Virus record (IMG/VR): IMGVR_UViG_3300033153_010326
Coordinates: 1-64,000 of that record
Reading direction: 5' to 3' (one strand)
DNA from: a virus
DNA length: 64,000 bases
Below the pieces are notes generated by a model, which saw only the letters and a program-made list of their open reading frames with translations, searched no databases and had not been told where the DNA came from. Below are positions 1,870 to 58,739 of the stretch, piece by piece. Each line of letters opens with the position of its first letter. Within the stretch, counting starts at the first letter, position 1. The position numbers and the translations under genes are program-made.

Positions 1870-2916
1870 CTATGCCACAGCTAGAGTTGCATCACTTGTG
1901 CAAATCGCAATCGGGTTCACGATAGCCATAACTAAACTCTCATAAGCAAAAACTCCATATGCTAACAAGTTAGAAAGCGAACTTCCCGTAGTACCAGGGT
2001 CAGCTATAACAGGAGTAGGTGTAACTATAACTGCTCTCTGAGCCTTATCTACATCAGCACCCATCAATCTAGCTATATTTTCAGGTATTCTCTTCCTTAT
2101 AAACTTAATAGGCTTACCTTTAGACAATCTTGAATTCCTAGCAACCATTATCATATGATTGGTATTAAGTATAGCTGTATCAGTAGCTGTTCCCCCATCT
2201 GTCTTATTATACTGTACTTTACCAAATACCTTAATTATCTCTACACCAGCTTCTTTCAATCTTGCCTTTAACGTAATATTATAATTAAACGAAGCAACAT
2301 TATCCTTATCATAAGTATCTATTTTCTCTTTAACAGTAGAACCAACCAAAAGTATATAACTATCACCATAATCTTCAAGCTTATGTTTCATAGCTATAAT
2401 AACATCATACAAATCGTCTCCAGATTCCGCATCTCTAGATTGAATCGCAGAACTAGATGGTAGATTATCTTTAAAACTTCCAGCATCAGTAGTATTTTCT
2501 ATAGCATTAATAAGCAAAGTCAATTCTCTCTTATCAAGACCTCTAGTTATCTTTTCTTTCTTTCTAGCAAGTACCTGAGTATCAGGACTGCCTAGAACAT
2601 CTTCTACATTAACATATTCTAATCTTGAATTAAATCCCTGAAAAGATATCTCAGTATCTCCCAAAGGACTTTTCTTAACAGGGGTTATTACTCCATCACC
2701 ATCAACAACTAAAATATACTCTGCTTCATCATCAACATCTGAATAAGTATAAACATGTTCTCCAGGTTCAGCAGGTTCAAGAACATCGGCTATAGCATTT
2801 ATTTCAAAAGCTACAGGCAATCTTTCATCTATAGGTTCCCCTATAAGTCTAGCTACTTCCATTGAATCACCAGGCATCCTAGCAAAACTCTGTTCTAAAT
2901 TCTTATCATTCTTCAT
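1870..2916 (-). CDS. major capsid protein (probable HK97 fold)
   Basis: 348 aa, directly after protease/scaffold, strong RBS, followed by a terminator; C-terminal YGVFAYESLVMAIVNP pattern. Confidence 0.8.
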   Translation of the reverse strand: MKNDKNLEQSFARMPGDSMEVARLIGEPIDERLPVAFEINAIADVLEPAEPGEHVYTYSDVDDEAEYILVVDGDGVITPVKKSPLGDTEISFQGFNSRLEYVNVEDVLGSPDTQVLARKKEKITRGLDKRELTLLINAIENTTDAGSFKDNLPSSSAIQSRDAESGDDLYDVIIAMKHKLEDYGDSYILLVGSTVKEKIDTYDKDNVASFNYNITLKARLKEAGVEIIKVFGKVQYNKTDGGTATDTAILNTNHMIMVARNSRLSKGKPIKFIRKRIPENIARLMGADVDKAQRAVIVTPTPVIADPGTTGSSLSNLLAYGVFAYESLVMAIVNPIAICTSDATLAVA

Positions 2917-2986: not shown

Positions 2987-3601
2987 CTAGTCTTTATAAC
3001 CAAATGCGTCTTTATTAATCTTCTTTTGTATATTAGTGTAATAATCTTTTCCTTTTTCAGGTTTAATCCCAATTATATCATTAGCATTTTCTTTTTCTGC
3101 TTTTAGCTTTGCATTTTCTAATTCTAACTTAGCCTTTTCAAATTTATCTTCATTTAAAATATCTTCATCAGATATTTCATAACTGCCTATTTCAGCACGT
3201 CTTGTTAGAATTTCTTTAGCGTTTTCAGCATACAATTTTACCTGTTTCTTAGCTTCAATAAGCTGTTTAGCAACTTTCTTTATACCATTTTTAAGAATTC
3301 CTTCAGTTTCCAACTTTGCAGTTGTAATAGAATTCTCTAAATCTTTAATCTTTTTAATAGCTTTCCTAAGAGTTTTTGTCTTAGGATATTTTTCAACAGT
3401 AGAGACTTCAATTTTTTCTTCGGCTTTAGGAGCTTTTTCCTCTGGTTTAACAATTTCTTCTACTATCTCTTCTTTAACAACAGTTTCAGGTTTTTCCTCT
3501 TTTATCGCCTCAGATTTTTCAATATTAACCTCTACTTTAGGTTCTTCTTTGACTTCTGGTTTTTCTTCAGAAGTCTTACCATCTTTTATAACATCTTTCA
3601 T
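2987..3601 (-). CDS. nested scaffolding protein (internal in-frame start)
   Basis: AAGGAGG-AAACACA-ATG in frame at 3601, followed by an E/K-rich coiled coil. Confidence 0.6.
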   Translation of the reverse strand: MKDVIKDGKTSEEKPEVKEEPKVEVNIEKSEAIKEEKPETVVKEEIVEEIVKPEEKAPKAEEKIEVSTVEKYPKTKTLRKAIKKIKDLENSITTAKLETEGILKNGIKKVAKQLIEAKKQVKLYAENAKEILTRRAEIGSYEISDEDILNEDKFEKAKLELENAKLKAEKENANDIIGIKPEKGKDYYTNIQKKINKDAFGYKD

Positions 3602-4783
3602 TGTGTTTCCTCCTTTTTCCGAATTTTTAGATATATCTATCCCTACTATTTTTTCTATTTTCATGTAGGTTTTTTCACTTTTTATATCATAAGAAAATAC
3701 TAATCCACATCTATTACATTTTACTTCTTTAGTTATTGATTTTGAAGTACCCAATACTTCATTAATTTTTCCACACTGATAACAAGCTATTTTTCCTATA
3801 TATAAATAAGATAAACCTGGAACCTTGCTTTTAGCTTTTTCTTTAGCCCATGTTATTTTATAAGTTTTTCCACACATAGATTCATTTAAACATTTAAGAG
3901 TAGCTCCTTCTTTATCTCTAGCAAGAATTTTCCAATGACTAGATTTACAACTAGGACATATAATTTGAAAATCTTTCTTTTGAGGGGGATAAATCATATT
4001 TCCCTCTTTATTAACAATAGCTAAACAACTTGGGCATTTTATTTCCGAAGCTTCTAGAGATTCAAATTCACTATTACAATTAGAGCATTTAATTTTTAAT
4101 TTTTGTAAAACTGGAACTGTTACTGTTTTAGTATTATCGTCTGCTATAATTAATTCATCTTTTTTATGAATTGAAGCATAAACTAAATCCTTTGCTTTTT
4201 CCATTCTTTTCATAGCTAACTGCAAAACTTTAGCATCTTTAAATGCAGGTTCTTCTGTCAATAAAATAGCTCCTCCTGCTATTTCTTGCTGTAATAACTC
4301 ATAAGTTCCATCTGCAAGATTTCTTCTTTTGTTTTTAGGACACCAAATTTCATAGCTAGTGGTAAGTTTTTTCTTTTTAAATAAAGTTTTAAAATCTTCC
4401 CATTCTTCATCAAAATTAGATTTATAAATAACTCCATATCCAATAACTTTATCCTGTTTCTGATTATAACTATAATCTATATAATGCCCTACTACATATC
4501 TTCTTTGATGGTCTATATTAATAGGTTTACCTATCATAGAAGGTAATGCTTTTAAAAGAGGTTTTTTTGGTAATCTGGCATTGTTTTTATTCGCTTTATT
4601 TGCAAAAGCATAAGTGCATTTAAATCCTGCTAAATCGGTGTTATTTTTTAACTCATAACCTTTCGTTTTAGCTATAGAGAGTATATCGTTTTTTTCTTTG
4701 CCTTCTTCTAAAAATTCAATTTCAGAATTTATTTCCCAATCTTTTAAAAATTCTTTTACTTGTTTATTCGTAATTAGTTCCAT
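2987..4783 (-). CDS. prohead protease with zinc ribbons fused to scaffold
   Basis: ANKN..GKPINIDH..VVGH..TSYE..GGAIL..PAF protease motifs; repeated CxxC pairs; acidic coiled-coil C-terminus. Confidence 0.75.
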   Translation of the reverse strand: MELITNKQVKEFLKDWEINSEIEFLEEGKEKNDILSIAKTKGYELKNNTDLAGFKCTYAFANKANKNNARLPKKPLLKALPSMIGKPINIDHQRRYVVGHYIDYSYNQKQDKVIGYGVIYKSNFDEEWEDFKTLFKKKKLTTSYEIWCPKNKRRNLADGTYELLQQEIAGGAILLTEEPAFKDAKVLQLAMKRMEKAKDLVYASIHKKDELIIADDNTKTVTVPVLQKLKIKCSNCNSEFESLEASEIKCPSCLAIVNKEGNMIYPPQKKDFQIICPSCKSSHWKILARDKEGATLKCLNESMCGKTYKITWAKEKAKSKVPGLSYLYIGKIACYQCGKINEVLGTSKSITKEVKCNRCGLVFSYDIKSEKTYMKIEKIVGIDISKNSEKGGNTMKDVIKDGKTSEEKPEVKEEPKVEVNIEKSEAIKEEKPETVVKEEIVEEIVKPEEKAPKAEEKIEVSTVEKYPKTKTLRKAIKKIKDLENSITTAKLETEGILKNGIKKVAKQLIEAKKQVKLYAENAKEILTRRAEIGSYEISDEDILNEDKFEKAKLELENAKLKAEKENANDIIGIKPEKGKDYYTNIQKKINKDAFGYKD

Positions 4784-14804: not shown

Positions 14805-16616
14805 TTATTCGGTATCTTTGGGAGGGTTAAGTAATTTCTTTAGTAATTGTTCTTTCATTTTTGCAATATTTAAATTTTTTTCTTCTAAAACTTCTTTCAT
14901 CATTTTATTTCCAGCTTCATCCATAACATCTTCTTCAAATCCTTCCATTACTTCTTCAATCATAGATTTGCTAATTTTTATTCTAGCGGAGACCTTAACC
15001 CAACGACCTTCTTTATTTTTACGAGCTATTTTAGAAATTAAAGCCCAAGCTATTTTACTAGCTTGCTTATCATTTCCGTAAGTTTTATATGCTTGATTGA
15101 ACACCTTCATCCAAGTTCGAGCCAAACTCTTCGTCATATTATCTTTAACTCTTTTAGGCAAGTCTTTTATATTTTGATAAGGAGCTATTTCTAAATCCTC
15201 TATATTTTTAGATAAATCATAATCTTTTTTCTCATTTCCTTTTTTATCATCTGGAATAGGTACTCCTCTTTTATCAGTTTCTCCTTCTTTGCCTGGAATA
15301 TCAACTCCCATTCCTTCTCTATTTTCAGTTATTCTAGGATACATCTTTTCTTCTATACCTTCTTCAGTCTCTTTTTCTGTTCTCATAACTTCTGTCCTAA
15401 AATCAACTTCAGCAATAACTTCTACTGCTGTTTGGTTAGATATTTTTCCACCCTTCCAAAGAAGCCTTACAAGCTGTTTAAATTTATCAGTCATGAATCC
15501 TCGAACTGGAGATGCAGTAACATAAAATTCTAAATTCATCCATTTCTTATTACTTTTATTTTTCTCAATAATTTTTAAAACTAAATGATAAAGGATTTGT
15601 TTAAAATCATCAACTCCAGTTTTTACTTCCTCTATAAAAGCTTTAGGATTTAATATACTTTCTCTACGAGAACTAGAAGTTCCTTCAACAACATCTATAA
15701 AACCCAATCCTGTAAGTATGTTTCTTTCAGCAGTTTCAAATAAAGCAGGTTCAAATATATTTTTTATATCTGGAATTATATGGTCTATTTGTTCATCAAA
15801 ATTGGTAGTTCTTACTGGAGCTTTTATTCTATGGTCTCCCATATTACTAGATTTAATATCGTCCATTAATTTTTGAAATTTCTTTTTAACCTCTATTAAT
15901 TCCTCATCTTTATATATTTTTGTACTATTAATTGCAAGAGCTTCTGTTCCTTTTTTTATCAATAACATATAAGGTATAACTTGTTCTAAAACTTCAATTT
16001 CTTTATTTTTGAGAGATTGTATAATTTTCCAATTATGAAATACTCCTCTTTTAATAAGAAAAGGAGTTGGATATTTATCAAACCATCTTCCATAAGGTCT
16101 TGCAAAAATTACATCCTTTCCTAATAATTGATATTGTTTCTTTTCTGTATTGCCTATATAATAATCATAATTAAGCAAACTTATAGCATCCTCGTCTTTT
16201 TTCTTATCTTTAGCATATATACTCCCACCATCCACAAAAAACATACTAGTAGGTAGTTGTAATCCATCAAATCTATCCCATTTCATTTTTAAAACAGGAA
16301 AAGAACCTCCCTTCCATCTTTCTTTAAAATATTCTTTAGCTAAATTTTTTATACCTATAGGAATTTGCCCATCGTATTCAGTATTAACACTATCAAGCCA
16401 TTTTTGAAATATTTTATTTAAATTATCATTAGGAGTTACTATATTATAATCCACAGTTGCCGAATTAACAGCAAAATCTGTTAAAGAATCTATCAATCCT
16501 GAAACATCATCTTTTAACATAGTATTTATTTCTTGAACTTGATTATGAAAATCAGAAGGCACTGTGATACGTTTCATTAAAAATGAGAGTATATAATTTA
16601 TATAATTAGAATCCAT
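14805..16616 (-). CDS. portal protein with C-terminal ChaB-like domain
   Basis: Directly follows the terminase; 603 aa; PY..IKDLP..VK.....W..VFN.AY...A.KIAWA ChaB motif. Confidence 0.75.
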   Translation of the reverse strand: MDSNYINYILSFLMKRITVPSDFHNQVQEINTMLKDDVSGLIDSLTDFAVNSATVDYNIVTPNDNLNKIFQKWLDSVNTEYDGQIPIGIKNLAKEYFKERWKGGSFPVLKMKWDRFDGLQLPTSMFFVDGGSIYAKDKKKDEDAISLLNYDYYIGNTEKKQYQLLGKDVIFARPYGRWFDKYPTPFLIKRGVFHNWKIIQSLKNKEIEVLEQVIPYMLLIKKGTEALAINSTKIYKDEELIEVKKKFQKLMDDIKSSNMGDHRIKAPVRTTNFDEQIDHIIPDIKNIFEPALFETAERNILTGLGFIDVVEGTSSSRRESILNPKAFIEEVKTGVDDFKQILYHLVLKIIEKNKSNKKWMNLEFYVTASPVRGFMTDKFKQLVRLLWKGGKISNQTAVEVIAEVDFRTEVMRTEKETEEGIEEKMYPRITENREGMGVDIPGKEGETDKRGVPIPDDKKGNEKKDYDLSKNIEDLEIAPYQNIKDLPKRVKDNMTKSLARTWMKVFNQAYKTYGNDKQASKIAWALISKIARKNKEGRWVKVSARIKISKSMIEEVMEGFEEDVMDEAGNKMMKEVLEEKNLNIAKMKEQLLKKLLNPPKDTE

Positions 16617-25450: not shown

Positions 25451-27181
25451 TTATTCCTCTTTTTCTTCAGGATAGTAATGTATTATTTTTCTATCTACTA
25501 TCTTTACTCCACAAGTACATCCATAACTATAATTTATTGTTACATTAACTTGAATAGGATTTTCATATCCTACTTGAGAAATAGGGTCTATTGGAAAAAT
25601 TTCCCAAGAAGTCTTAATCATTATTTTATTACATTTTGGACATTTATATATCTTTGTCTCTGATTTTTTGTTATCATCAATTATTTTCTTTTTAATATCA
25701 GAATGGTCAAGCAAATATACAAGAGCTTGTTTAAATGCTGAAAGTTTTTGACATTGATTTTCGTAAGTAAAACTTGCTTTATTTTCAAATCCGTCTTTGC
25801 AATGAATATCCTTTACTAAAATAGCAGAACCTATTCCATTATGACAACAAATACTAAGCCAATAAGGATGACGATAATGAGTAATTTCCTGCATTATATT
25901 ATCTGCTTCCTCATCCCAACAAGTAACTTTATCAATCCTTGCTCTAAGTTCATCATACTTATCCACTTTAACCTCCTCTTTAACTTTACAATCTAATACA
26001 TCCAAATGCTTTTCTTCTATTTTATAACCTTCTAACAGGCTCTTTAATACCTTTACCATATTCTCTTCAGCAGTAATAGCTTCTTCTTTGGTATTTGCTT
26101 GTTGAATTTTTTTCCAAGCCGAACCCTCTTTATCGCATTTTTGATTTGCTATCTTAAGTGGACATTTTTGGCAATCTAGGTTTTTTTCTCCACCAAAGTT
26201 AAAACATAAAGCACAATCTACAGCTTGATAACTTATTATTTTTTCACCAATAAGGAAATATTTTACCCCACAGTCAGAAATAAATTTTCCTTTTAAAGTT
26301 TTTAATTTATGTAAATTATCCTCATGATGAATAATACTATCTATAATTGCTTTAGTAGTTGATTCATCATATTTTGGTGTAGTGTTAGGGATTTTTTTAA
26401 GATATTCAGTTGTTAAAGTAGAACACCAACCTTCGTTTTCTTTATTTTGAAAACATAAGGCATTAGTATCGGAATATTTTTTTCTTAAAATACCTTTTTT
26501 CCCTATATAACAACTTTTACAACGACCTCTAAAGTGACATTTAGGTAATTTAATTATTTCTACAGGGTCTCCTTCTTTAAACTCTTCTTCTATCTTTTTT
26601 AAACCATTAATACCTATTAAAATTTCTGCTCTTCTATCTTCTAATCGTACAAGAGCTATTGAAGGATTATGGTAAGGACTTCTTAAGTGTGGAGCTATTT
26701 TTACAATATGACCAGTTTCTCCATTTATAGCTCTTTCTCCATCTATCCAATCTTTTGCTCCCATAGATTTCGCCTGTTCAATATACTGAAAATATCCCGC
26801 TCCTTTGTTAATTATTTCAACTCTATCTCCTACCTTTAAATTCTCCATACAATCCTCCATAATTATTTTTTTTTCATGTATATTACCAATAATTTTAGCA
26901 TGTTTAAATTTAATATTATAAACTCCTAAACTTCTAATATCTAATATAGCTACTTTTAAATTTTCTCCTCCATCTATACTTATTTCTAATATATCCCCTT
27001 CATATATATCCGTTCCATCTCTATCCTGCTTTCCAATATATTGCCCTACCGTAATTACTTGAACTTCATATTGTTCTTTATTCTTATCAAAAATTAAAGG
27101 ATAATCTCTACCTTGTAATAAATCCCCATAAGCCCATTTACAACCATATATACATAATCCTCTAAATTTATTTTCTCTCAT
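25451..27181 (-). CDS. YopX-like domain fused (via an A9 run) to a multi-domain hypothetical protein
   Basis: KFRG..W.YG..TVGQYIG..D..G..IYEGDI..IIGNIHE YopX motif; internal GGAGG + ATG at 26848. Confidence 0.6.
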   Translation of the reverse strand: MRENKFRGLCIYGCKWAYGDLLQGRDYPLIFDKNKEQYEVQVITVGQYIGKQDRDGTDIYEGDILEISIDGGENLKVAILDIRSLGVYNIKFKHAKIIGNIHEKKIIMEDCMENLKVGDRVEIINKGAGYFQYIEQAKSMGAKDWIDGERAINGETGHIVKIAPHLRSPYHNPSIALVRLEDRRAEILIGINGLKKIEEEFKEGDPVEIIKLPKCHFRGRCKSCYIGKKGILRKKYSDTNALCFQNKENEGWCSTLTTEYLKKIPNTTPKYDESTTKAIIDSIIHHEDNLHKLKTLKGKFISDCGVKYFLIGEKIISYQAVDCALCFNFGGEKNLDCQKCPLKIANQKCDKEGSAWKKIQQANTKEEAITAEENMVKVLKSLLEGYKIEEKHLDVLDCKVKEEVKVDKYDELRARIDKVTCWDEEADNIMQEITHYRHPYWLSICCHNGIGSAILVKDIHCKDGFENKASFTYENQCQKLSAFKQALVYLLDHSDIKKKIIDDNKKSETKIYKCPKCNKIMIKTSWEIFPIDPISQVGYENPIQVNVTINYSYGCTCGVKIVDRKIIHYYPEEKEE

Positions 27182-53825: not shown

Positions 53826-54848
53826 ATGAAAATTGCAAATAAGAAATTGTTCATAGAACTTTATAATTCAGGTAAAAGTGATTGTGAAATTTCTCAATTA
53901 TTAGAAATAGGAGAAAGAACAGTTTCTAGATATGCTCAAAATTTAAGAGCAAAAAACCAAATTAAATCTAGAAAAGAATTGCAAATTAATTCTAAAGTGA
54001 ATTTAGATAAAGTTAAGGACATAGATATAGAAAAAAATTTAAAACAAGCTCAAACAGATTGGAAAATACCAAAAGGAACTAAAAAAACAGATTCTATAGA
54101 TACTTTTAAAAAATGGCTTTATGTAGCAGACCAACATGTACCTGAACATAATGTTCCTGCTAATAGAGCTATTCATAAATTAATGGATGATATTAAATTT
54201 GATGGATTTCGTATTGTAGGAGATTTTATGGATATGTCTCCGATTTCTCATTGGAACGAGCATAAACGCAAAACTCTTGAAACACAAAGATTAAAGGAGC
54301 ATTATATAATAGGTAATGTTCTTTTGGATGAATATGATAAAAGATTACCTAAAAATTGCAATAAAGGTTATTTTTGGGGAAATCATGAGAATTGGTATAA
54401 TGATTTAATAGAAAAACTTCCAGTATTAGAAGGAATGTTAAATCCTACAGAAGAGCTTCGTCTAATAGAAAGAAATTATAAAGTTTATGAAAATCAAAAT
54501 CATATTGAAAGAATAGGCAGACTTTCAGTAACACATGGAGTATATGCTAATGTTCATGCAGTAAAAAAGCATATTGACGAATTTAAAACCAATGTAATGT
54601 TTTTTCATACTCATAGAATAGGTTCAAGGTCTTCAAGTTCTCCTGCTAAAGAAATAGCTATTATAGGATATAATGTAGGATGTTTATGTGATAAGAATCC
54701 TGATTATCTTAGAAATAGACCTAATAAATGGAGTCTTGGTTTTGCTATTGTTTATTATTTACCAAATGGATTCTTTTTTGTCCAAAATATAAGAATTATT
54801 AAAGGAAAATTTATATATAATAATAAACTTTACGATGGGAATATATAG
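53826..54848 (+). CDS. calcineurin-like metallophosphoesterase with N-terminal HTH
   Basis: DQH, GDFMD, GNHE, THG, HTHR. Confidence 0.85.
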   Translation: MKIANKKLFIELYNSGKSDCEISQLLEIGERTVSRYAQNLRAKNQIKSRKELQINSKVNLDKVKDIDIEKNLKQAQTDWKIPKGTKKTDSIDTFKKWLYVADQHVPEHNVPANRAIHKLMDDIKFDGFRIVGDFMDMSPISHWNEHKRKTLETQRLKEHYIIGNVLLDEYDKRLPKNCNKGYFWGNHENWYNDLIEKLPVLEGMLNPTEELRLIERNYKVYENQNHIERIGRLSVTHGVYANVHAVKKHIDEFKTNVMFFHTHRIGSRSSSSPAKEIAIIGYNVGCLCDKNPDYLRNRPNKWSLGFAIVYYLPNGFFFVQNIRIIKGKFIYNNKLYDGNI

Positions 54849-55416
54849 AAAATAAAGGAGGATAATTATGAAACTACATGTAGAGAATATATTATCACCT
54901 TACTATACTATAACTGATAAAAAATCAGGAAAAAGGATTCCTTTCTGTGTTTGGGCAAATGATAAGCAGGGAGTTTATAACTGTTATAAAACAGATAAAA
55001 ATAAAAAAGTTGTTGTAAATAAAGAAAACAAAGTTGTAACCGAAACAATAAATAAACCTATTAAGATTATTAGAAATTGTTCATGGATTTATATGTTTTT
55101 TAATTCTATGGTAAGAATTTTTAACCAATTAAGATTACTTAAAAAAATTGAAAGGAGAAAGAAAAAATGTCTAAACCTTACCCCAAGTATGAAAAAGTAG
55201 ACAAAGATACCATAAAAATAATAATGGAAAGAGTACAAGATGTTCCAATACAAAGAATATTAAACAATAGGGAAGTATTGCTGGCTCAAAAAGCAGAGAT
55301 AGAAAAACAATTAGAAAATATTGCTGAAATTATTAAAACAGCTAAAAAATTAGGTATAGATACTACTCTTAAACTTAAACAAGAAGATAAGAACTTTAAA
55401 AAAGGAGGAAATAAAA

Positions 55417-56040
55417 ATGGGAAAGAAAATAGATAAAAATATGAATTTACATATTAAAATTGCTAAAGGTATAAAAGAACCTATTAATGTTTATACTATT
55501 CCAGAATATTTAAGAGAAAATGCTTTTATAAAAGAGGCAACTCCAGAGTCTCGAAGTTATATTATAGAAGCTAAAAAAGTTACTTATATAGATGGTGATG
55601 GTCGTTTAAGTAGAGTTAAAGCAGATTATTATGGAGATTGTGAAATTCCTTTTTCTGGATTGAATTCTAATTTAGAATATATGTCTATAGAAGGGGTGCT
55701 TAAAGGGAATAATGAAGAAGAATTAAACGAAATAAGAATAAAAATAGCAACAGTTATGGATGTAAAAGAAATAAATTTATTAAAATTATTAAGAAAGAAA
55801 ACTATTTTTTCTTGGATTTTTAGAAAGAAAGAAAACAGATATTTTATTTTTATAAAAAGAGGGGTTCCTAGAGAATTAGCAAAAAGTATGGGATTTTCTG
55901 AAAAAATTATGTTAAGAACTCCGATTGTTAATCCTTGTCCAGTTAGTATGTCAGATACAACAAAAGGAATAAAACCAAATACTTTAGCTTATGGAGTCTA
56001 TGGTTACGAATCTTACATTATGGCATTAGTTGAGGTATAA
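55417..56040 (+). CDS. internally deleted paralog of the major capsid protein
   Basis: Collinear similarity to 1870-2916 (DGDG..GD.EI.F.G.NS.LEY; LAYGV..YES..MA.V). Confidence 0.8.
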   Translation: MGKKIDKNMNLHIKIAKGIKEPINVYTIPEYLRENAFIKEATPESRSYIIEAKKVTYIDGDGRLSRVKADYYGDCEIPFSGLNSNLEYMSIEGVLKGNNEEELNEIRIKIATVMDVKEINLLKLLRKKTIFSWIFRKKENRYFIFIKRGVPRELAKSMGFSEKIMLRTPIVNPCPVSMSDTTKGIKPNTLAYGVYGYESYIMALVEV

Positions 56041-56293
56041 ATGACCAAAAAAACTTTTAAGATAAGAACTCCTATTTGGAAGACTATGAGCGTAGGATTA
56101 GCAGAATATAAGTTAGCTGATATGAATTATGTGGAGATTATATATAGAGCTAATTCTGGAAGAAAATTATTTCCAGATAAATATAGAATTTCTAAAGAGA
56201 AAGTTTTGAAGTATCCAACTCAGTTTGTAGGAGTAAATTTAAGAATTATTCCAATAGAAGATTTAGAAATTGTAAAAAAAAGGAGGAAATGAA

Positions 56294-56527
56294 ATGGGAA
56301 AGATTAATTATATAAGAGTATCGTCTGTAAAGGGACTTGTAAAGGAACTTGGTCGTAGAAGTGGTAAGGATTTTTTGGAAGAGTTAGATAGAGTAGTTGG
56401 AGAAATAGTAAAAAGAGCTTCTAAGAAAGAAAGTAAGAAGAAAACTTTAGATGCTTCAGATGTTAAAGTAATTGTAGATTCTATGGTAGTAGGAGTACCA
56501 GAAGAAATGGTTAAGGATTCTAAATAA
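56294..56527 (+). CDS. histone-fold protein
   Basis: I..S.VK.LVKE.G.R....F.E.L...V..IV..A......KKTL.A.DV matches the prokaryotic histone pattern. Confidence 0.7.
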   Translation: MGKINYIRVSSVKGLVKELGRRSGKDFLEELDRVVGEIVKRASKKESKKKTLDASDVKVIVDSMVVGVPEEMVKDSK

Positions 56528-56726
56528 TTAAATATTGAGGGAGTTATTTGTAAGCGACCTGACCCCTCCCTCAGTATTATTTTTGGAGGATAAAAAATGG
56601 CTAATAGAATAATTAGAATGAGAAAATGGAGAGCTTCTGGTCATAAGCATAAGAAGAATAAGAAGAGCGTAGCTGACAGAAAAATAATTAAGAATCTTCT
56701 TAAAAAACATACCATAAAGGAAGTTT

Positions 56727-58739
56727 ATGGAATATAAAAAAATCATCTTATCAAAATTGCTTATCTATTTAAAAAATAAAAAAGTAAAATTAAGTAGAGG
56801 TAATATAAAAACTTTAAAATGTCCCAAATGTGGTAAGACTGCTAATATTATTCCTAATGTTAATGAAATTAATTGTTTCGTTTGTAAGCCAAAGAAATTG
56901 TTAAATCGTTACTGGAATCTTATAGATATAGTAAGAATAATAGAAAAAGATAAAGAAAGTTGGGATGATGAAAAGATTTTACAATATTTAAAGGAATATT
57001 TAGATATTAAAGTTACTACAGAAAAAGATAATCAAGCTATTGAAGATATTTTAAATAAGTATCAAGAATGGGGATTTGATTTAGTACCTATACATGCTAA
57101 TGGTAAAGTTCCATTTGAAATAAAAGATTGGACTATTATACCTCATAAAGAAATATATGAATGGAAAAATTGGCTAAATGATGGTCTTAATATAGGAGTT
57201 AAAACTGGTAAGAGAAGTAATATAACCGCCATTGACATAGATGCTTTAACTAAAGAAGAAAAGAAAGAAATAAGAACAAAGAAAATTTCAAAAGAAAGAT
57301 TAGAAGAATTGATGCAATTAAGACAAGACAGATTAGATAAAGTTTATAAAGAAATGGGAGATATAGTAGGTAATCCTTTAGTACAACATAATCTTGGAGG
57401 TCATCATTTAATTTATCAATATGAAGAAGATATTCGCAAAACTTATATTAAGGTTCAAGATATTCATTTAGATATAGAAAATAATGGAGGTTATATTTTA
57501 CTTGCTCCTTCAAAAGTAGGTAACAATGATTCTAGAAGTTTTAAAGAAAATACAACACCACCTAAAATGCCTGACAAATTAAAACAATTTATATTATCAA
57601 AAATGAAACCTTCTAATAAAACTTATAGTGAAGGTATTATAGAGGATATAAAAACTGAAGATTTTAAAATAGACCCAAAGAAATTTATGTTAAAAAATAA
57701 TCAATTGGAAGGATGTTGTAATACTGAATTTATAAAACTTGGAGGGATTTTACGAAAGCAATTAAATATGAAACAAACAGGTTATGTTCTTAATGTTTTA
57801 AATAAACATATTTTAGAAAAACCAATGGAATCAAAAATGGTAAGAGCAATGTTACAAGAGTTAAATAAATATTCTCAATTTGACGAGACAGAATTAGCTC
57901 ATAAAATTTTAGAATATTTAAAAGATTGTGTAGAAGAAGCTGGTAGAATAGAAATAGCTATGGCAGTAGTTGGAACAAATAGAGGAGAAGATAAAAAGAG
58001 AGTAGATAAAGCTCTTCAGTATTTAATTAGAGAGAAGCAAATTGTAAGAAATGGCAAAGCTTATGAAATTATTGATGATTCGGAATGGACTGAAGAATTT
58101 ATGAATACAGGAATTCCTATAGATTTTAAGATGCCTTATTTTTATGATACTATGTATTTTCACGTCGGAGACCTTCTATTAATTGGAGCTTCTCCTGCAA
58201 TAGGCAAAACTCACATTTCAGTAAATATTATCAAACAATTAGTAGACCAAAATATTAAACCTTATTATGTATCATTGGAAGGAGGGAGTCGCTACGCAAA
58301 AATTGCGAAACAATTAGGATTAAAAGAAGGAGATTTTTCAATTAAAGAAACTTCTAATCCTAATAAAATAAAATTAAAAGATGGAGCAATAACTATTATA
58401 GATTGGATATGTCCTCGTAATTATGCAGAAACTGACAAAGTTTTACAAAATTTAGCTGACAAAGTAAGAGAAACTAAAGGAATATTAATAATTTTTGTTC
58501 AATTAAGAAAAAATGATACTTGGTTAGCTCCAGACCTTATTAATCAATTTCCATCATTTGCTTGTAGATATACTTATGATAAAGAAGATGATGGAGAATT
58601 TGGGAGATTTCATATAGATAAATTGAGAGATGCTAAAGTTAAAATTAAGAATCATAAAATACCTTGTAAGTATTCATGGGATACTAAATTATTTAAGAGG
58701 GTGGATGAATTAGATGAAGATATTAAAGAGACTGGTTAA
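56727..58739 (+). CDS. primase-polymerase / helicase fusion
   Basis: Zn finger; GKVP..W..NIGVKTG..IDID..GG.H..GGYI..APS Prim-Pol motifs; GASPAIGKT Walker A. Confidence 0.85.
   Translation: MEYKKIILSKLLIYLKNKKVKLSRGNIKTLKCPKCGKTANIIPNVNEINCFVCKPKKLLNRYWNLIDIVRIIEKDKESWDDEKILQYLKEYLDIKVTTEKDNQAIEDILNKYQEWGFDLVPIHANGKVPFEIKDWTIIPHKEIYEWKNWLNDGLNIGVKTGKRSNITAIDIDALTKEEKKEIRTKKISKERLEELMQLRQDRLDKVYKEMGDIVGNPLVQHNLGGHHLIYQYEEDIRKTYIKVQDIHLDIENNGGYILLAPSKVGNNDSRSFKENTTPPKMPDKLKQFILSKMKPSNKTYSEGIIEDIKTEDFKIDPKKFMLKNNQLEGCCNTEFIKLGGILRKQLNMKQTGYVLNVLNKHILEKPMESKMVRAMLQELNKYSQFDETELAHKILEYLKDCVEEAGRIEIAMAVVGTNRGEDKKRVDKALQYLIREKQIVRNGKAYEIIDDSEWTEEFMNTGIPIDFKMPYFYDTMYFHVGDLLLIGASPAIGKTHISVNIIKQLVDQNIKPYYVSLEGGSRYAKIAKQLGLKEGDFSIKETSNPNKIKLKDGAITIIDWICPRNYAETDKVLQNLADKVRETKGILIIFVQLRKNDTWLAPDLINQFPSFACRYTYDKEDDGEFGRFHIDKLRDAKVKIKNHKIPCKYSWDTKLFKRVDELDEDIKETG

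What the first reader, a model, noticed from the sequence alone, without database searches (positions are those of the whole stretch)
55417..56040. Second, internally deleted copy of the major capsid protein in the replication arm
Seen: the 207-aa ORF aligns collinearly with the MCP at 1870-2916. Matching blocks are IAKGIKEPI/VARLIGEPI, DGDGRLSRVKADYYGDCEIPFSGLNSNLEY/DGDGVITPVKKSPLGDTEISFQGFNSRLEY, MDVKEINLL/LDKRELTLL, FIKRGVPRELAKSMG/FIRKRIPENIARLMG and NTLAYGVYGYESYIMALV/NLLAYGVFAYESLVMAIV. Roughly 120 central MCP residues are replaced by a ~17-aa basic linker. It has its own AGGAGG RBS, is intact and diverged, and lies on the opposite strand ~52 kb from the head operon. Inference: the missing block is most of the HK97 A-domain, leaving E-loop, spine helix and P-domain. 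Expressed before late genes, it could be a decoy for capsid-sensing immunity (CapRel-type), a poison subunit against co-infecting relatives (compare the satellite capsid homolog Ccm), or a size/assembly modulator.
Basis: partly seen in the sequence, partly recalled or inferred. Interest (0 to 1): 0.85.

Follow-up and report, generated by a model that had tools for sequence, protein, structure and literature searches.

The report
Capsid protein copy lacking its core domain
An uncultured 104-kb phage carries, among its replication genes, a second, intact but fast-evolving copy of its shell protein with the whole central (axial) domain removed. This copy belongs to a small undescribed gene family that probably binds capsid-assembly partners and does not build the shell itself.

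Summary
The 207-aa ORF (55417-56040, +) is collinearly homologous to the 348-aa ORF at 1870-2916 (-): BLASTP E 5e-14 and 1e-11, and profile-profile probability 99.95%, E 8e-38.

The 348-aa protein is an HK97-fold major capsid protein (MCP). Its AF2 model has pLDDT 81, Foldseek gives probability 1.0 to many capsids, and the match to HK97 itself has Z 14.5.

The short form lacks MCP residues about 136-252/262 and the C-terminal tail 334-348. These are the two segments that make the axial (A) domain. It keeps the N-arm, E-loop, spine helix and P-domain sheet.

It is one of 11 protein clusters in three size classes (149-207 aa). They group apart from 61 MCPs, and all keep nine MCP-invariant core residues. 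A syntenic ortholog (58% identity) is intact. Neutral drift would keep that frame open in about 5e-5 of simulations. The gene evolves 2-3 times faster than its neighbours and is absent from 21 related phage records, so it is an accessory gene.

Function is untested. My best guess (about 40%) is a non-polymerising pseudo-subunit that binds MCP-periphery partners and modulates or poisons assembly. An immune decoy is less favoured.

Earlier scan notes (AI, unchecked) report other stripped-down capsid paralogs in unrelated phages.

The parts
55417..56040 (+). Mini-MCP gene: a 207-aa paralog of the major capsid protein without the A-domain.
   Evidence: ORF seen. Homology to the MCP. Syntenic ortholog with 58% identity. 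Family of 11 protein clusters.
55403..55408 (+). Shine-Dalgarno sequence AGGAGG, 8 nt before the ATG. It lies inside the 3' end of the upstream 89-aa ORF.
   Evidence: Sequence read. The ortholog on L006 has AAGGAG at the same spacing.
55453..55782 (+). N-terminal homology block (residues 13-122), covering the N-arm motif, E-loop, and spine helix.
   Evidence: BLASTP against MCP 19-135, E 5e-14. Mapped onto MCP model elements H17-24, E43-103 and H115-139.
55783..55848 (+). Junction segment (residues 123-144). It is either a linker or the retained beta-strand and turn equivalent to MCP 253-271.
   Evidence: Unaligned in BLASTP. MAFFT places it on MCP 253-271. It is conserved in the ortholog P0002 and shorter in the other subtypes.
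55849..56031 (+). C-terminal homology block (residues 145-205): the P-domain beta-sheet.
   Evidence: BLASTP against MCP 272-333, 42% identity, E 1e-11. Corresponds to MCP model strands 270-332.
1870..2916 (-). Major capsid protein gene (348 aa, HK97 fold), the full-length paralog.
   Evidence: AF2 model with pLDDT 81 and pTM 0.77. Foldseek probability 1.0 to phage capsids and encapsulins. VIA-align Z 14-16, with HK97 1ohg_A at Z 14.5. More than 350 homologs found.
2104..2511 (-). MCP codons 136-271: the central block (A-domain) that has no BLASTP counterpart in the short form.
   Evidence: Gap. The model shows helices 143-151, 169-180, 193-205 and 216-222, and strands 184-191, 225-229, 233-236, 245-248 and 254-262.
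1873..1917 (-). MCP codons 334-348: the C-terminal strand and helix. Missing from all short forms.
   Evidence: Alignments. Model elements E338-342 and H344-347.
55167..55436 (+). Upstream 89-aa ORF. It overlaps the mini-MCP start by 20 nt and is in the same operon.
   Evidence: ORF. Homologs on L006 and in G002.
56041..56527 (+). Two small downstream ORFs (83 aa and 77 aa) that fill the same variable slot before the primase-helicase gene.
   Evidence: ORFs. Both are present on L006 and absent from the same slot in G002. The 83-aa ORF occurs in three relatives that lack a mini-MCP, and the 77-aa ORF in none.
56727..58739 (+). Prim-Pol/DnaB-like primase-helicase gene, which marks the replication module.
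   Evidence: Pfam PF09250, E 1.1e-11.

Best explanation
The ORF encodes a real 'mini-MCP', maintained by selection. It is a paralog of the phage's HK97-fold major capsid protein from which the whole axial (A) domain has been removed: both the central block and the C-terminal strand. The N-arm, E-loop, spine helix and P-domain sheet remain.

It belongs to a small, fast-evolving accessory family found in uncultured AT-rich phages of about 100 kb. In the two genomes where the DNA is available, it sits in a variable slot of the replication-gene operon.

The A-domain forms the hub of every pentamer and hexamer, so this protein cannot be a shell subunit. It does keep the MCP family's invariant P-domain and spine-helix residues, and also the conserved N-arm motif, which in MCPs serves only contacts between molecules.

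The most likely mechanism is therefore a non-polymerising pseudo-subunit. It would bind something that normally docks on the periphery of a capsid subunit: another MCP, the scaffold/protease or the portal. By doing so it would modulate or block procapsid assembly, either the phage's own timing or the assembly of a co-infecting relative.

Shown: homology, the domain-level deletion, family conservation, selection for an open frame, accessory distribution.
Inferred: folding like the MCP periphery, binding to assembly partners, early expression.
For: Homology to the MCP:
- BLASTP E 5e-14 and 1e-11.
- hhalign probability 99.95%, E 8e-38.
- The genome holds only these two HK97-like genes.

MCP fold and domain map:
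- AF2 pLDDT 81 with spine helix 115-139.
- Foldseek and VIA-align matches to capsids, including HK97.
- The missing parts, 136-262 and 334-348, together make up the helix and five-strand-sheet domain.

Family:
- 11 short forms of 149-207 aa share the same deletion. One subtype also lacks E-loop residues 56-89.
- F92, S97, Y101, I123, D128, E131, R275, R294 and E326 are kept in 11 of 11. The N-arm proline P28 is kept in 10 of 11.
- The short forms are one group in the tree, with UFBoot 100 and SH-aLRT 99.

Selection:
- The ortholog on L006 is syntenic, intact and has a ribosome-binding site.
- In neutral simulations at the observed divergence the frame stays open in 5e-5 of runs.
- ML omega is 0.17.

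Fast, accessory evolution, as expected for genes in conflict or modulation roles:
- dN is 0.30 against 0.09-0.20 for six neighbouring genes.
- P0125 and P0153 are 74% identical, while the MCPs on contigs of the same lengths are 89% identical.
- The gene is absent from 21 related records, eight of them at least 95% complete.
- The closest relative that has the primase region carries a different small ORF in this slot.

Position: in the + (non-structural) arm, 28-88 kb.
Against: - No structure could be obtained for the short form itself. Every attempt to model it gave pLDDT under 50, so the claim that it keeps the fold rests on homology.
- No binding evidence of any kind exists.
- NG86 omega is 0.70 (95% CI 0.48-1.00), so the pairwise data alone do not exclude very weak constraint.
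- An assembly poison made from the phage's own early operon would also threaten its own capsids unless its amount or timing is controlled. No such control is visible.
- The short form has lost the MCP's acidic surface charge, so its surfaces are not simple copies of the MCP's.
- Genomic context is known for only two carriers.
Confidence: 0.4

Rival explanations
1. Anti-defence decoy or shield. Made early, the mini-MCP would occupy host sensors that recognise capsid protein (CapRel-type, Avs-type) without activating them, or would cover newly made MCP so that sensors cannot see it.
For: - Its location in a variable early-operon slot, its sporadic distribution and its rapid evolution are typical of counter-defence genes.
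- It retains MCP-like P-domain and N-arm elements.
- Many defence systems sense the MCP (bioRxiv 10.64898/2026.01.04.697583).
Against: - Avs7, Avs8 and Avs10 are reported to bind mainly the penton/hexon-forming face of the A-domain, by shape and charge complementarity. That domain is absent here.
- Overall charge has shifted from acidic (pI 4.6 for the matching MCP parts) to basic (pI 9.3), which makes for poor mimicry.
- The host and its defence systems are unknown.
Confidence: 0.2
2. Neofunctionalised protein with a job unrelated to capsids, for example a nucleic-acid-associated or replication-associated factor. It would have reused the spine-helix and P-sheet scaffold.
For: - It is embedded in a tight operon with the primase-helicase gene and small basic proteins.
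- pI is 8.5-10.1 across the family.
- The constraints typical of MCP surfaces have been lost.
Against: - Basic pI is the genome-wide norm, with a median of 9.45 in this arm, so it carries no information.
- Retaining the MCP's N-arm motif and invariant core residues is more easily explained by a capsid-related interaction.
- No nucleic-acid-binding domain was detected.
Confidence: 0.15
3. Minor virion component. It would be a cement-like or site-specific accessory subunit that docks between capsomers or at a special vertex through P-domain-type contacts.
For: - It keeps the elements that make contacts between capsomers in HK97-like shells (with the established HK97 topology).
- Capsid-protein homologs with specialised positions are known: T4 gp24 (own knowledge) and Ccm pentamers (PMC8569155).
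Against: - It is encoded about 52 kb from the head module, in the non-structural arm.
- It is missing from 21 relatives whose MCPs are 34-72% identical to this one, so their capsids do not need it.
- It evolves faster than the MCP.
Confidence: 0.1
4. A decaying duplicate with no function, or a spurious ORF.
For: - NG86 omega is 0.70 with an upper confidence bound of 1.0.
- All attempts to model the fold gave low confidence.
Against: - 11 intact members in three subtypes share conserved blocks.
- An intact syntenic ortholog with a ribosome-binding site exists.
- The probability of keeping the frame open under neutrality is about 5e-5.
- Nine MCP-invariant residues are kept in all 11 members.
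- ML omega is 0.17.
Confidence: 0.05

Closest known systems
The phage's own HK97-fold major capsid protein (348 aa, 1870-2916) and its unnamed metagenomic family
   Same: - Clear sequence homology over the N-arm, E-loop, spine helix and P-domain.
- Nine family-invariant residues are conserved.
   Different: - Lacks the entire A-domain and the C-terminal tail.
- Basic where the MCP is acidic.
- Encoded in the replication arm.
- Accessory and faster-evolving.
Ccm of SaPIbov5, a satellite-encoded capsid-protein homolog (PMC8569155, PMC5052747)
   Same: A diverged homolog of an HK97-type capsid protein, encoded outside the head operon, that acts on capsid assembly.
   Different: - Ccm is a complete HK97-fold subunit that forms the pentamers of small capsids.
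- Ccm is encoded by a satellite and acts against its helper phage.
- The gene here is in the phage itself and lacks the domain needed to form a capsomer.
T4 gp24, the vertex paralog of the major capsid protein gp23 (own knowledge)
   Same: A paralog of the MCP within the same phage genome.
   Different: gp24 is full-length, late-expressed, encoded next to gp23, and forms the pentameric vertices. None of this applies here.
Other stripped-down capsid paralogs noted earlier in this scan (e1-4858151, e1-5952528, e1-5318773, e1-3272148; AI notes, unchecked)
   Same: Intact, diverged, reduced copies of a phage's own capsid protein encoded away from the head module, with unknown function.
   Different: - They are in unrelated genomes and families, and sequence look-ups found no shared words.
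- Some carry export signals or lack the N-arm and E-loop instead of the A-domain.

Membership tests
HK97-fold major capsid protein (functional shell subunit) | Sequence or profile homology to an established HK97-fold MCP | tested here: met
   hhalign probability 99.95%, E 8e-38 to the MCP family. That family's fold is confirmed by AF2 with Foldseek and VIA-align.
HK97-fold major capsid protein (functional shell subunit) | Complete fold including the axial (A) domain, which forms the centres of pentamers and hexamers | tested here: not met
   All 11 short forms lack MCP residues about 140-252 and 340-348.
HK97-fold major capsid protein (functional shell subunit) | Gene lies in the head-morphogenesis module | tested here: not met
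   It lies in the + arm between a metallophosphoesterase gene and the primase-helicase gene, 52 kb from the MCP gene. The position is the same on L006.
HK97-fold major capsid protein (functional shell subunit) | Core gene present in every related genome | tested here: not met
   Absent from 21 of 21 related IMG/VR records, each of which has the full MCP.
Ccm-like capsid-redirecting homolog | Encoded by a satellite or PICI that exploits a helper phage | tested here: not met
   The gene lies inside a 104-kb virus record rated 100% complete, with direct terminal repeats and its own MCP.
Ccm-like capsid-redirecting homolog | Full HK97 fold able to form capsomers that co-assemble with the helper's capsid protein | tested here: not met
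   The A-domain is absent. Ccm occupies pentamers (PMC8569155).
Ccm-like capsid-redirecting homolog | Alters capsid size or blocks phage assembly | not testable with these tools
   Needs co-expression and electron microscopy.
Capsid-mimic immune decoy (hypothetical class) | Retains the surface that MCP sensors recognise | tested here: inconclusive
   - The A-domain face bound by Avs7, Avs8 and Avs10 is missing, and the charge is not conserved.
- Sensors directed at the P-domain or N-arm cannot be excluded.
- The host is unknown.

The most novel reading that the evidence does not exclude
Mini-MCPs may be a previously unrecognised class of capsid pseudo-subunits. These would be domain-deleted copies of the shell protein that phages keep in their early gene sets as weapons or shields. 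They would cap the peripheral contact surfaces of capsid subunits to sabotage the assembly of competing relatives, or mask capsid protein from host sensors. The reduced capsid paralogs noted elsewhere in this scan might then be parallel inventions of the same strategy.
Probability: 0.3. Interest if true: 0.85.

Novelty: new variant of a known kind. Interest (0 to 1): 0.66.

Why it matters
Capsid-protein paralogs known so far (T4 gp24, satellite Ccm) are complete subunits that enter the shell. A conserved paralog that has lost exactly the capsomer-forming domain cannot be a building block. It keeps the peripheral elements and sits among replication genes, which points to a regulatory, interfering or protective use of the HK97 fold.

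If it binds the MCP or the scaffold, it would be a natural, genetically encoded assembly inhibitor or modulator. It would also be a handle on which surfaces drive the association of capsomers. If it acts on host sensors, it would be a new counter-defence principle.

The finding also documents a large, unnamed lineage of AT-rich ~100-kb phages whose MCP matches no Pfam or PHROG family and no GenBank phage.

Tried and rejected
- AF2 of the short form with its two-sequence alignment gave pLDDT 32 and was unusable. The ESM Atlas's own model is equally poor (pLDDT 0.32), and its feature search returned no usable hit.
- Complex prediction on MCP plus short form gave no verdict: score 0.00, partner fold uncertain, controls not run. 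This is not evidence either way.
The contigs of P0124, P0125, P0144, P0148 and P0153-P0157 could therefore not be read, and the pairing of P0125 with P0058 and of P0153 with P0097 rests on equal contig lengths only.
- Pfam, PHROGs and PDB searches found nothing for either protein: Pfam and PHROGs sequence scans, and a PDB search with the MCP family profile.
- tblastn against GenBank phages found no match for the short form, P0125 or the MCP.
- Scans of viral contigs and genome contigs for short forms returned only full MCPs or nothing. The first metagenome scan chose poor patterns. The second, with a motif pattern, found L006.
- The idea that charge reversal shows DNA or MCP binding was dropped. 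The whole proteome is basic.
- A quick-tree AU test suggested that the local-origin topology was better. This was an artefact of an incomplete search. On the careful tree that topology is 26 lnL worse, though not rejected (p 0.144).
- Linkage of the mini-MCP with the 83-aa and 77-aa neighbours as a module was rejected for the 83-aa ORF, which is present in three records without a mini-MCP. It is undecidable for the 77-aa ORF.
- Promoter and terminator scans were uninformative, with fewer hits than in shuffled sequence.
- Literature searches found no described HK97 paralog without an A-domain. The 'MCP paralog' hits concern other folds.

Full report
**1. Observation**

The window is the first 64 kb of a 104,368-bp IMG/VR virus record with direct terminal repeats, rated 100% complete. 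It has 27% G+C. The 207-aa ORF at 55417-56040 (+) and the 348-aa ORF at 1870-2916 (-) both exist.

BLASTP aligns them in two collinear segments:
- short 13-122 with long 19-135, 34% identity, E 5e-14;
- short 145-205 with long 272-333, 42% identity, E 1e-11.

A profile-profile comparison of six short forms against 61 full-length homologs gives probability 99.95%, E 8.4e-38, as one collinear alignment with one large gap.

AGGAGG lies 8 nt before the ATG and overlaps the end of the preceding ORF. A search of the whole genome finds only these two related genes.

**2. The long protein is an HK97-fold capsid protein**

It has no Pfam, PHROG or PDB sequence match and no relative in GenBank phages. 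It does have more than 350 metagenomic homologs of about 320-350 aa.

An AF2 model built from 61 sequences has pLDDT 81 and pTM 0.77. Foldseek matches hundreds of phage capsids and encapsulins at probability 1.0. VIA-align gives Z 14-16, including HK97 gp5 (1ohg_A: Z 14.5, model 21-345 on chain 120-383).

**3. What is missing**

The model's secondary-structure elements, in order, are:
- N-arm helices;
- E-loop strands (43-103);
- a long spine helix (115-139);
- a block of four helices and five strands (143-262);
- the P-domain strands (270-332);
- a C-terminal strand and helix (338-347).

In the canonical HK97 topology, the block after the spine helix and the C-terminus together form the axial (A) domain, with its five-stranded sheet (description in PMC5701804; the rest is my own knowledge). 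The short form lacks exactly these two parts. The deletion therefore maps to one discrete domain.

The 22-residue junction (short 123-144) aligns, weakly, with the MCP strand and turn at 253-271. It is conserved in the ortholog, so it may be retained structure and not a new linker.

**4. A family, not a one-off**

A search of 1.84 billion representative proteins with the short-form profile, followed by a word-based search, found 11 short-form clusters. P0170, P0141, P0142 and P0152 are MCP fragments and were excluded.

There are three subtypes:

| Subtype | Members | Length | MCP residues covered |
|---|---|---|---|
| A | window, P0002 | 197-207 aa | 10-135 and 253-335 |
| B | P0124, P0125, P0153-P0155 | 178-187 aa | 14-139 and 263-339 |
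| C | P0144, P0148, P0156, P0157 | 149-155 aa | as B, but also lacking E-loop 56-89 |

The common core is therefore the N-arm, spine helix and P-domain sheet.

Among MCP positions conserved at 90% or more that lie in the retained parts:
- F92, S97, Y101, I123, D128, E131, R275, R294 and E326 are identical in all 11 short forms.
- P28, in the N-arm motif, is kept in 10 of 11.
- R274, M285, G286 and P302 are nearly always kept.

The N-arm is modelled with low confidence. In HK97-type capsids it serves contacts between subunits or with the scaffold (own knowledge). Its conservation in the short forms hints at a retained protein-protein contact; this is an inference.

**5. Origin**

The careful maximum-likelihood tree (LG+C20 PMSF, 72 rows, 175 shared columns) puts all 11 short forms on one side of a branch, with UFBoot 100 and SH-aLRT 99.

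Forcing the window-type pair to group with the window's own MCP clade costs 26 lnL, but the AU test does not reject it (p 0.144). Long branches are also involved. A single old deletion event is therefore favoured, and the shared deletion boundaries agree with that, but it is not proven.

**6. Selection and tempo**

A metagenome contig (L006, 8.9 kb) is syntenic with window 51.4-59.5 kb. It carries the ortholog P0002 (58% identity, same architecture, AAGGAG ribosome-binding site) in the same position.

- Nucleotide p-distance is 0.26. Simulated neutral descendants keep the frame open in 5e-5 of runs, or 0.003 at half the distance.
- dN is 0.30, against 0.09-0.20 for six flanking genes.
- Omega depends on the method because dS is saturated and the codons are AT-biased: NG86 gives 0.70 (CI 0.48-1.00) and ML gives 0.17. 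Neighbours give 0.12-0.29 (NG86) and 0.01-0.22 (ML).
- In a second lineage, P0125 and P0153 are 74% identical, while the MCPs found on contigs of identical lengths (100,671 and 101,501 bp) are 89% identical.

The gene is thus kept open and conserved in blocks, but it evolves 2-3 times faster than its surroundings.

**7. Distribution and context**

Twenty-one related IMG/VR records, eight of them at least 95% complete, contain the full MCP but no second copy. This holds with both the 2-sequence and the 6-sequence profile.

In the closest relative that includes the primase region (G002, MCP 72% identical), the homolog of the upstream 89-aa ORF is followed by an unrelated 80-aa ORF and then a small basic ORF and the primase-helicase gene. 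The mini-MCP and the 83-aa and 77-aa ORFs are absent. The 83-aa ORF occurs in three records without a mini-MCP, and the 77-aa ORF in none. The gene therefore occupies a variable slot in the replication operon.

Genome-wide, the - arm (88-104 kb and 0-28 kb) carries the structural genes. The + arm (28-88 kb) carries replication and glycan-modification genes (and earlier notes).

**8. A control that removed an argument**

The short forms are basic (pI 8.5-10.1), whereas the MCP and its matching parts are acidic (pI 4.6-5.0). However, 85% of + arm ORFs have pI above 8, with a median of 9.45. The correct reading is that the short form has lost the MCP's selected acidity. It has not gained a special positive charge.

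**9. Mechanism**

A subunit without an A-domain cannot sit in a capsomer ring. What it keeps are the elements that in HK97-like shells contact neighbouring subunits, neighbouring capsomers and the scaffold.

Combined with its accessory distribution, rapid evolution and non-structural location, my best explanation (about 0.4) is a non-polymerising pseudo-subunit. It would bind an MCP-periphery partner and modulate or poison assembly.

The rivals are:
- An immune decoy or shield (0.2). This is weakened because Avs7, Avs8 and Avs10 bind the A-domain face by shape and charge.
- A capsid-unrelated new function (0.15).
- A minor virion component (0.1).
- A decaying duplicate (0.05).

No binding or structural evidence for the short form could be obtained.

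**10. Comparison and novelty**

The closest known cases are complete capsid-protein paralogs. Ccm of SaPIbov5 forms pentamers in redirected capsids (PMC8569155). T4 gp24 forms vertices (own knowledge). The present gene fails the defining features of a shell subunit and of a Ccm-like protein (see the membership table).

Literature searches found no description of an HK97 paralog lacking the A-domain.

Earlier AI notes of this scan report other reduced capsid paralogs in unrelated phages. They share no sequence with this family, and I did not test them.

I rate this a new variant of a known kind, with interest 0.66.

Noticed in passing
Pfam gives no hit even at E<=1. It is present on L006 (80% identity) but in none of 21 related records.
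   Followed up: partly
window 53826-54848 (+): A 340-aa protein with an N-terminal LuxR/GerE-like HTH fused to a phage metallophosphoesterase (PHROG 221, E 8e-30). tblastn found no match to it on L006, where a 374-aa ORF occupies the position; a 372-aa ORF lies at the same place in G002.
   Followed up: no
window 2987-4783 (-): A 598-aa protein directly upstream of the MCP gene. It has several CxxC zinc-ribbon motifs (weak Pfam hit PF09723) and a long Lys/Glu-rich C-terminal half. No protease or scaffold family was detected, but it could be the scaffold.
   Followed up: no
window 1870-2916 (-) and relatives: The MCP family has more than 350 metagenomic members, many on contigs of 80-110 kb. 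It matches no Pfam, PHROG or PDB sequence and has no relative in 50,697 GenBank phage records. This is an unnamed, uncultured phage lineage.
   Followed up: partly
whole window: The genome has 27% G+C and no tRNA genes in the window. The predicted proteome is strongly basic (median pI 9.0-9.45), while the MCP is acidic (pI 4.8).
   Followed up: partly
window 56597-56737 (+); L079 6802-7023: A small Arg/Lys-rich ORF (46 aa here, 73 aa in G002) lies directly before the primase-helicase gene, overlapping its start here. By eye the two share a conserved HKHxKKSVAxRK-like stretch.
   Followed up: no
window 14805-16616 (-) and 25451-27181 (-): The structural-arm proteins carry a ChaB domain (603 aa, E 1.5e-8) and a YopX domain (576 aa, E 3.5e-6).
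   Followed up: no
P0136 (2473 aa, metagenomic): This giant protein matches residues 41-81 of the short-form profile in 13 repeated stretches (E 9e-10). It is probably a repeat resembling the DGDG-containing E-loop segment. I did not examine it.
   Followed up: no
L004 1547-2470 (-): A full-length MCP (51% identity to the window's MCP) carries the exact ten-residue motif FSGLNSNLEY, which is otherwise typical of the window-type short forms.
   Followed up: no
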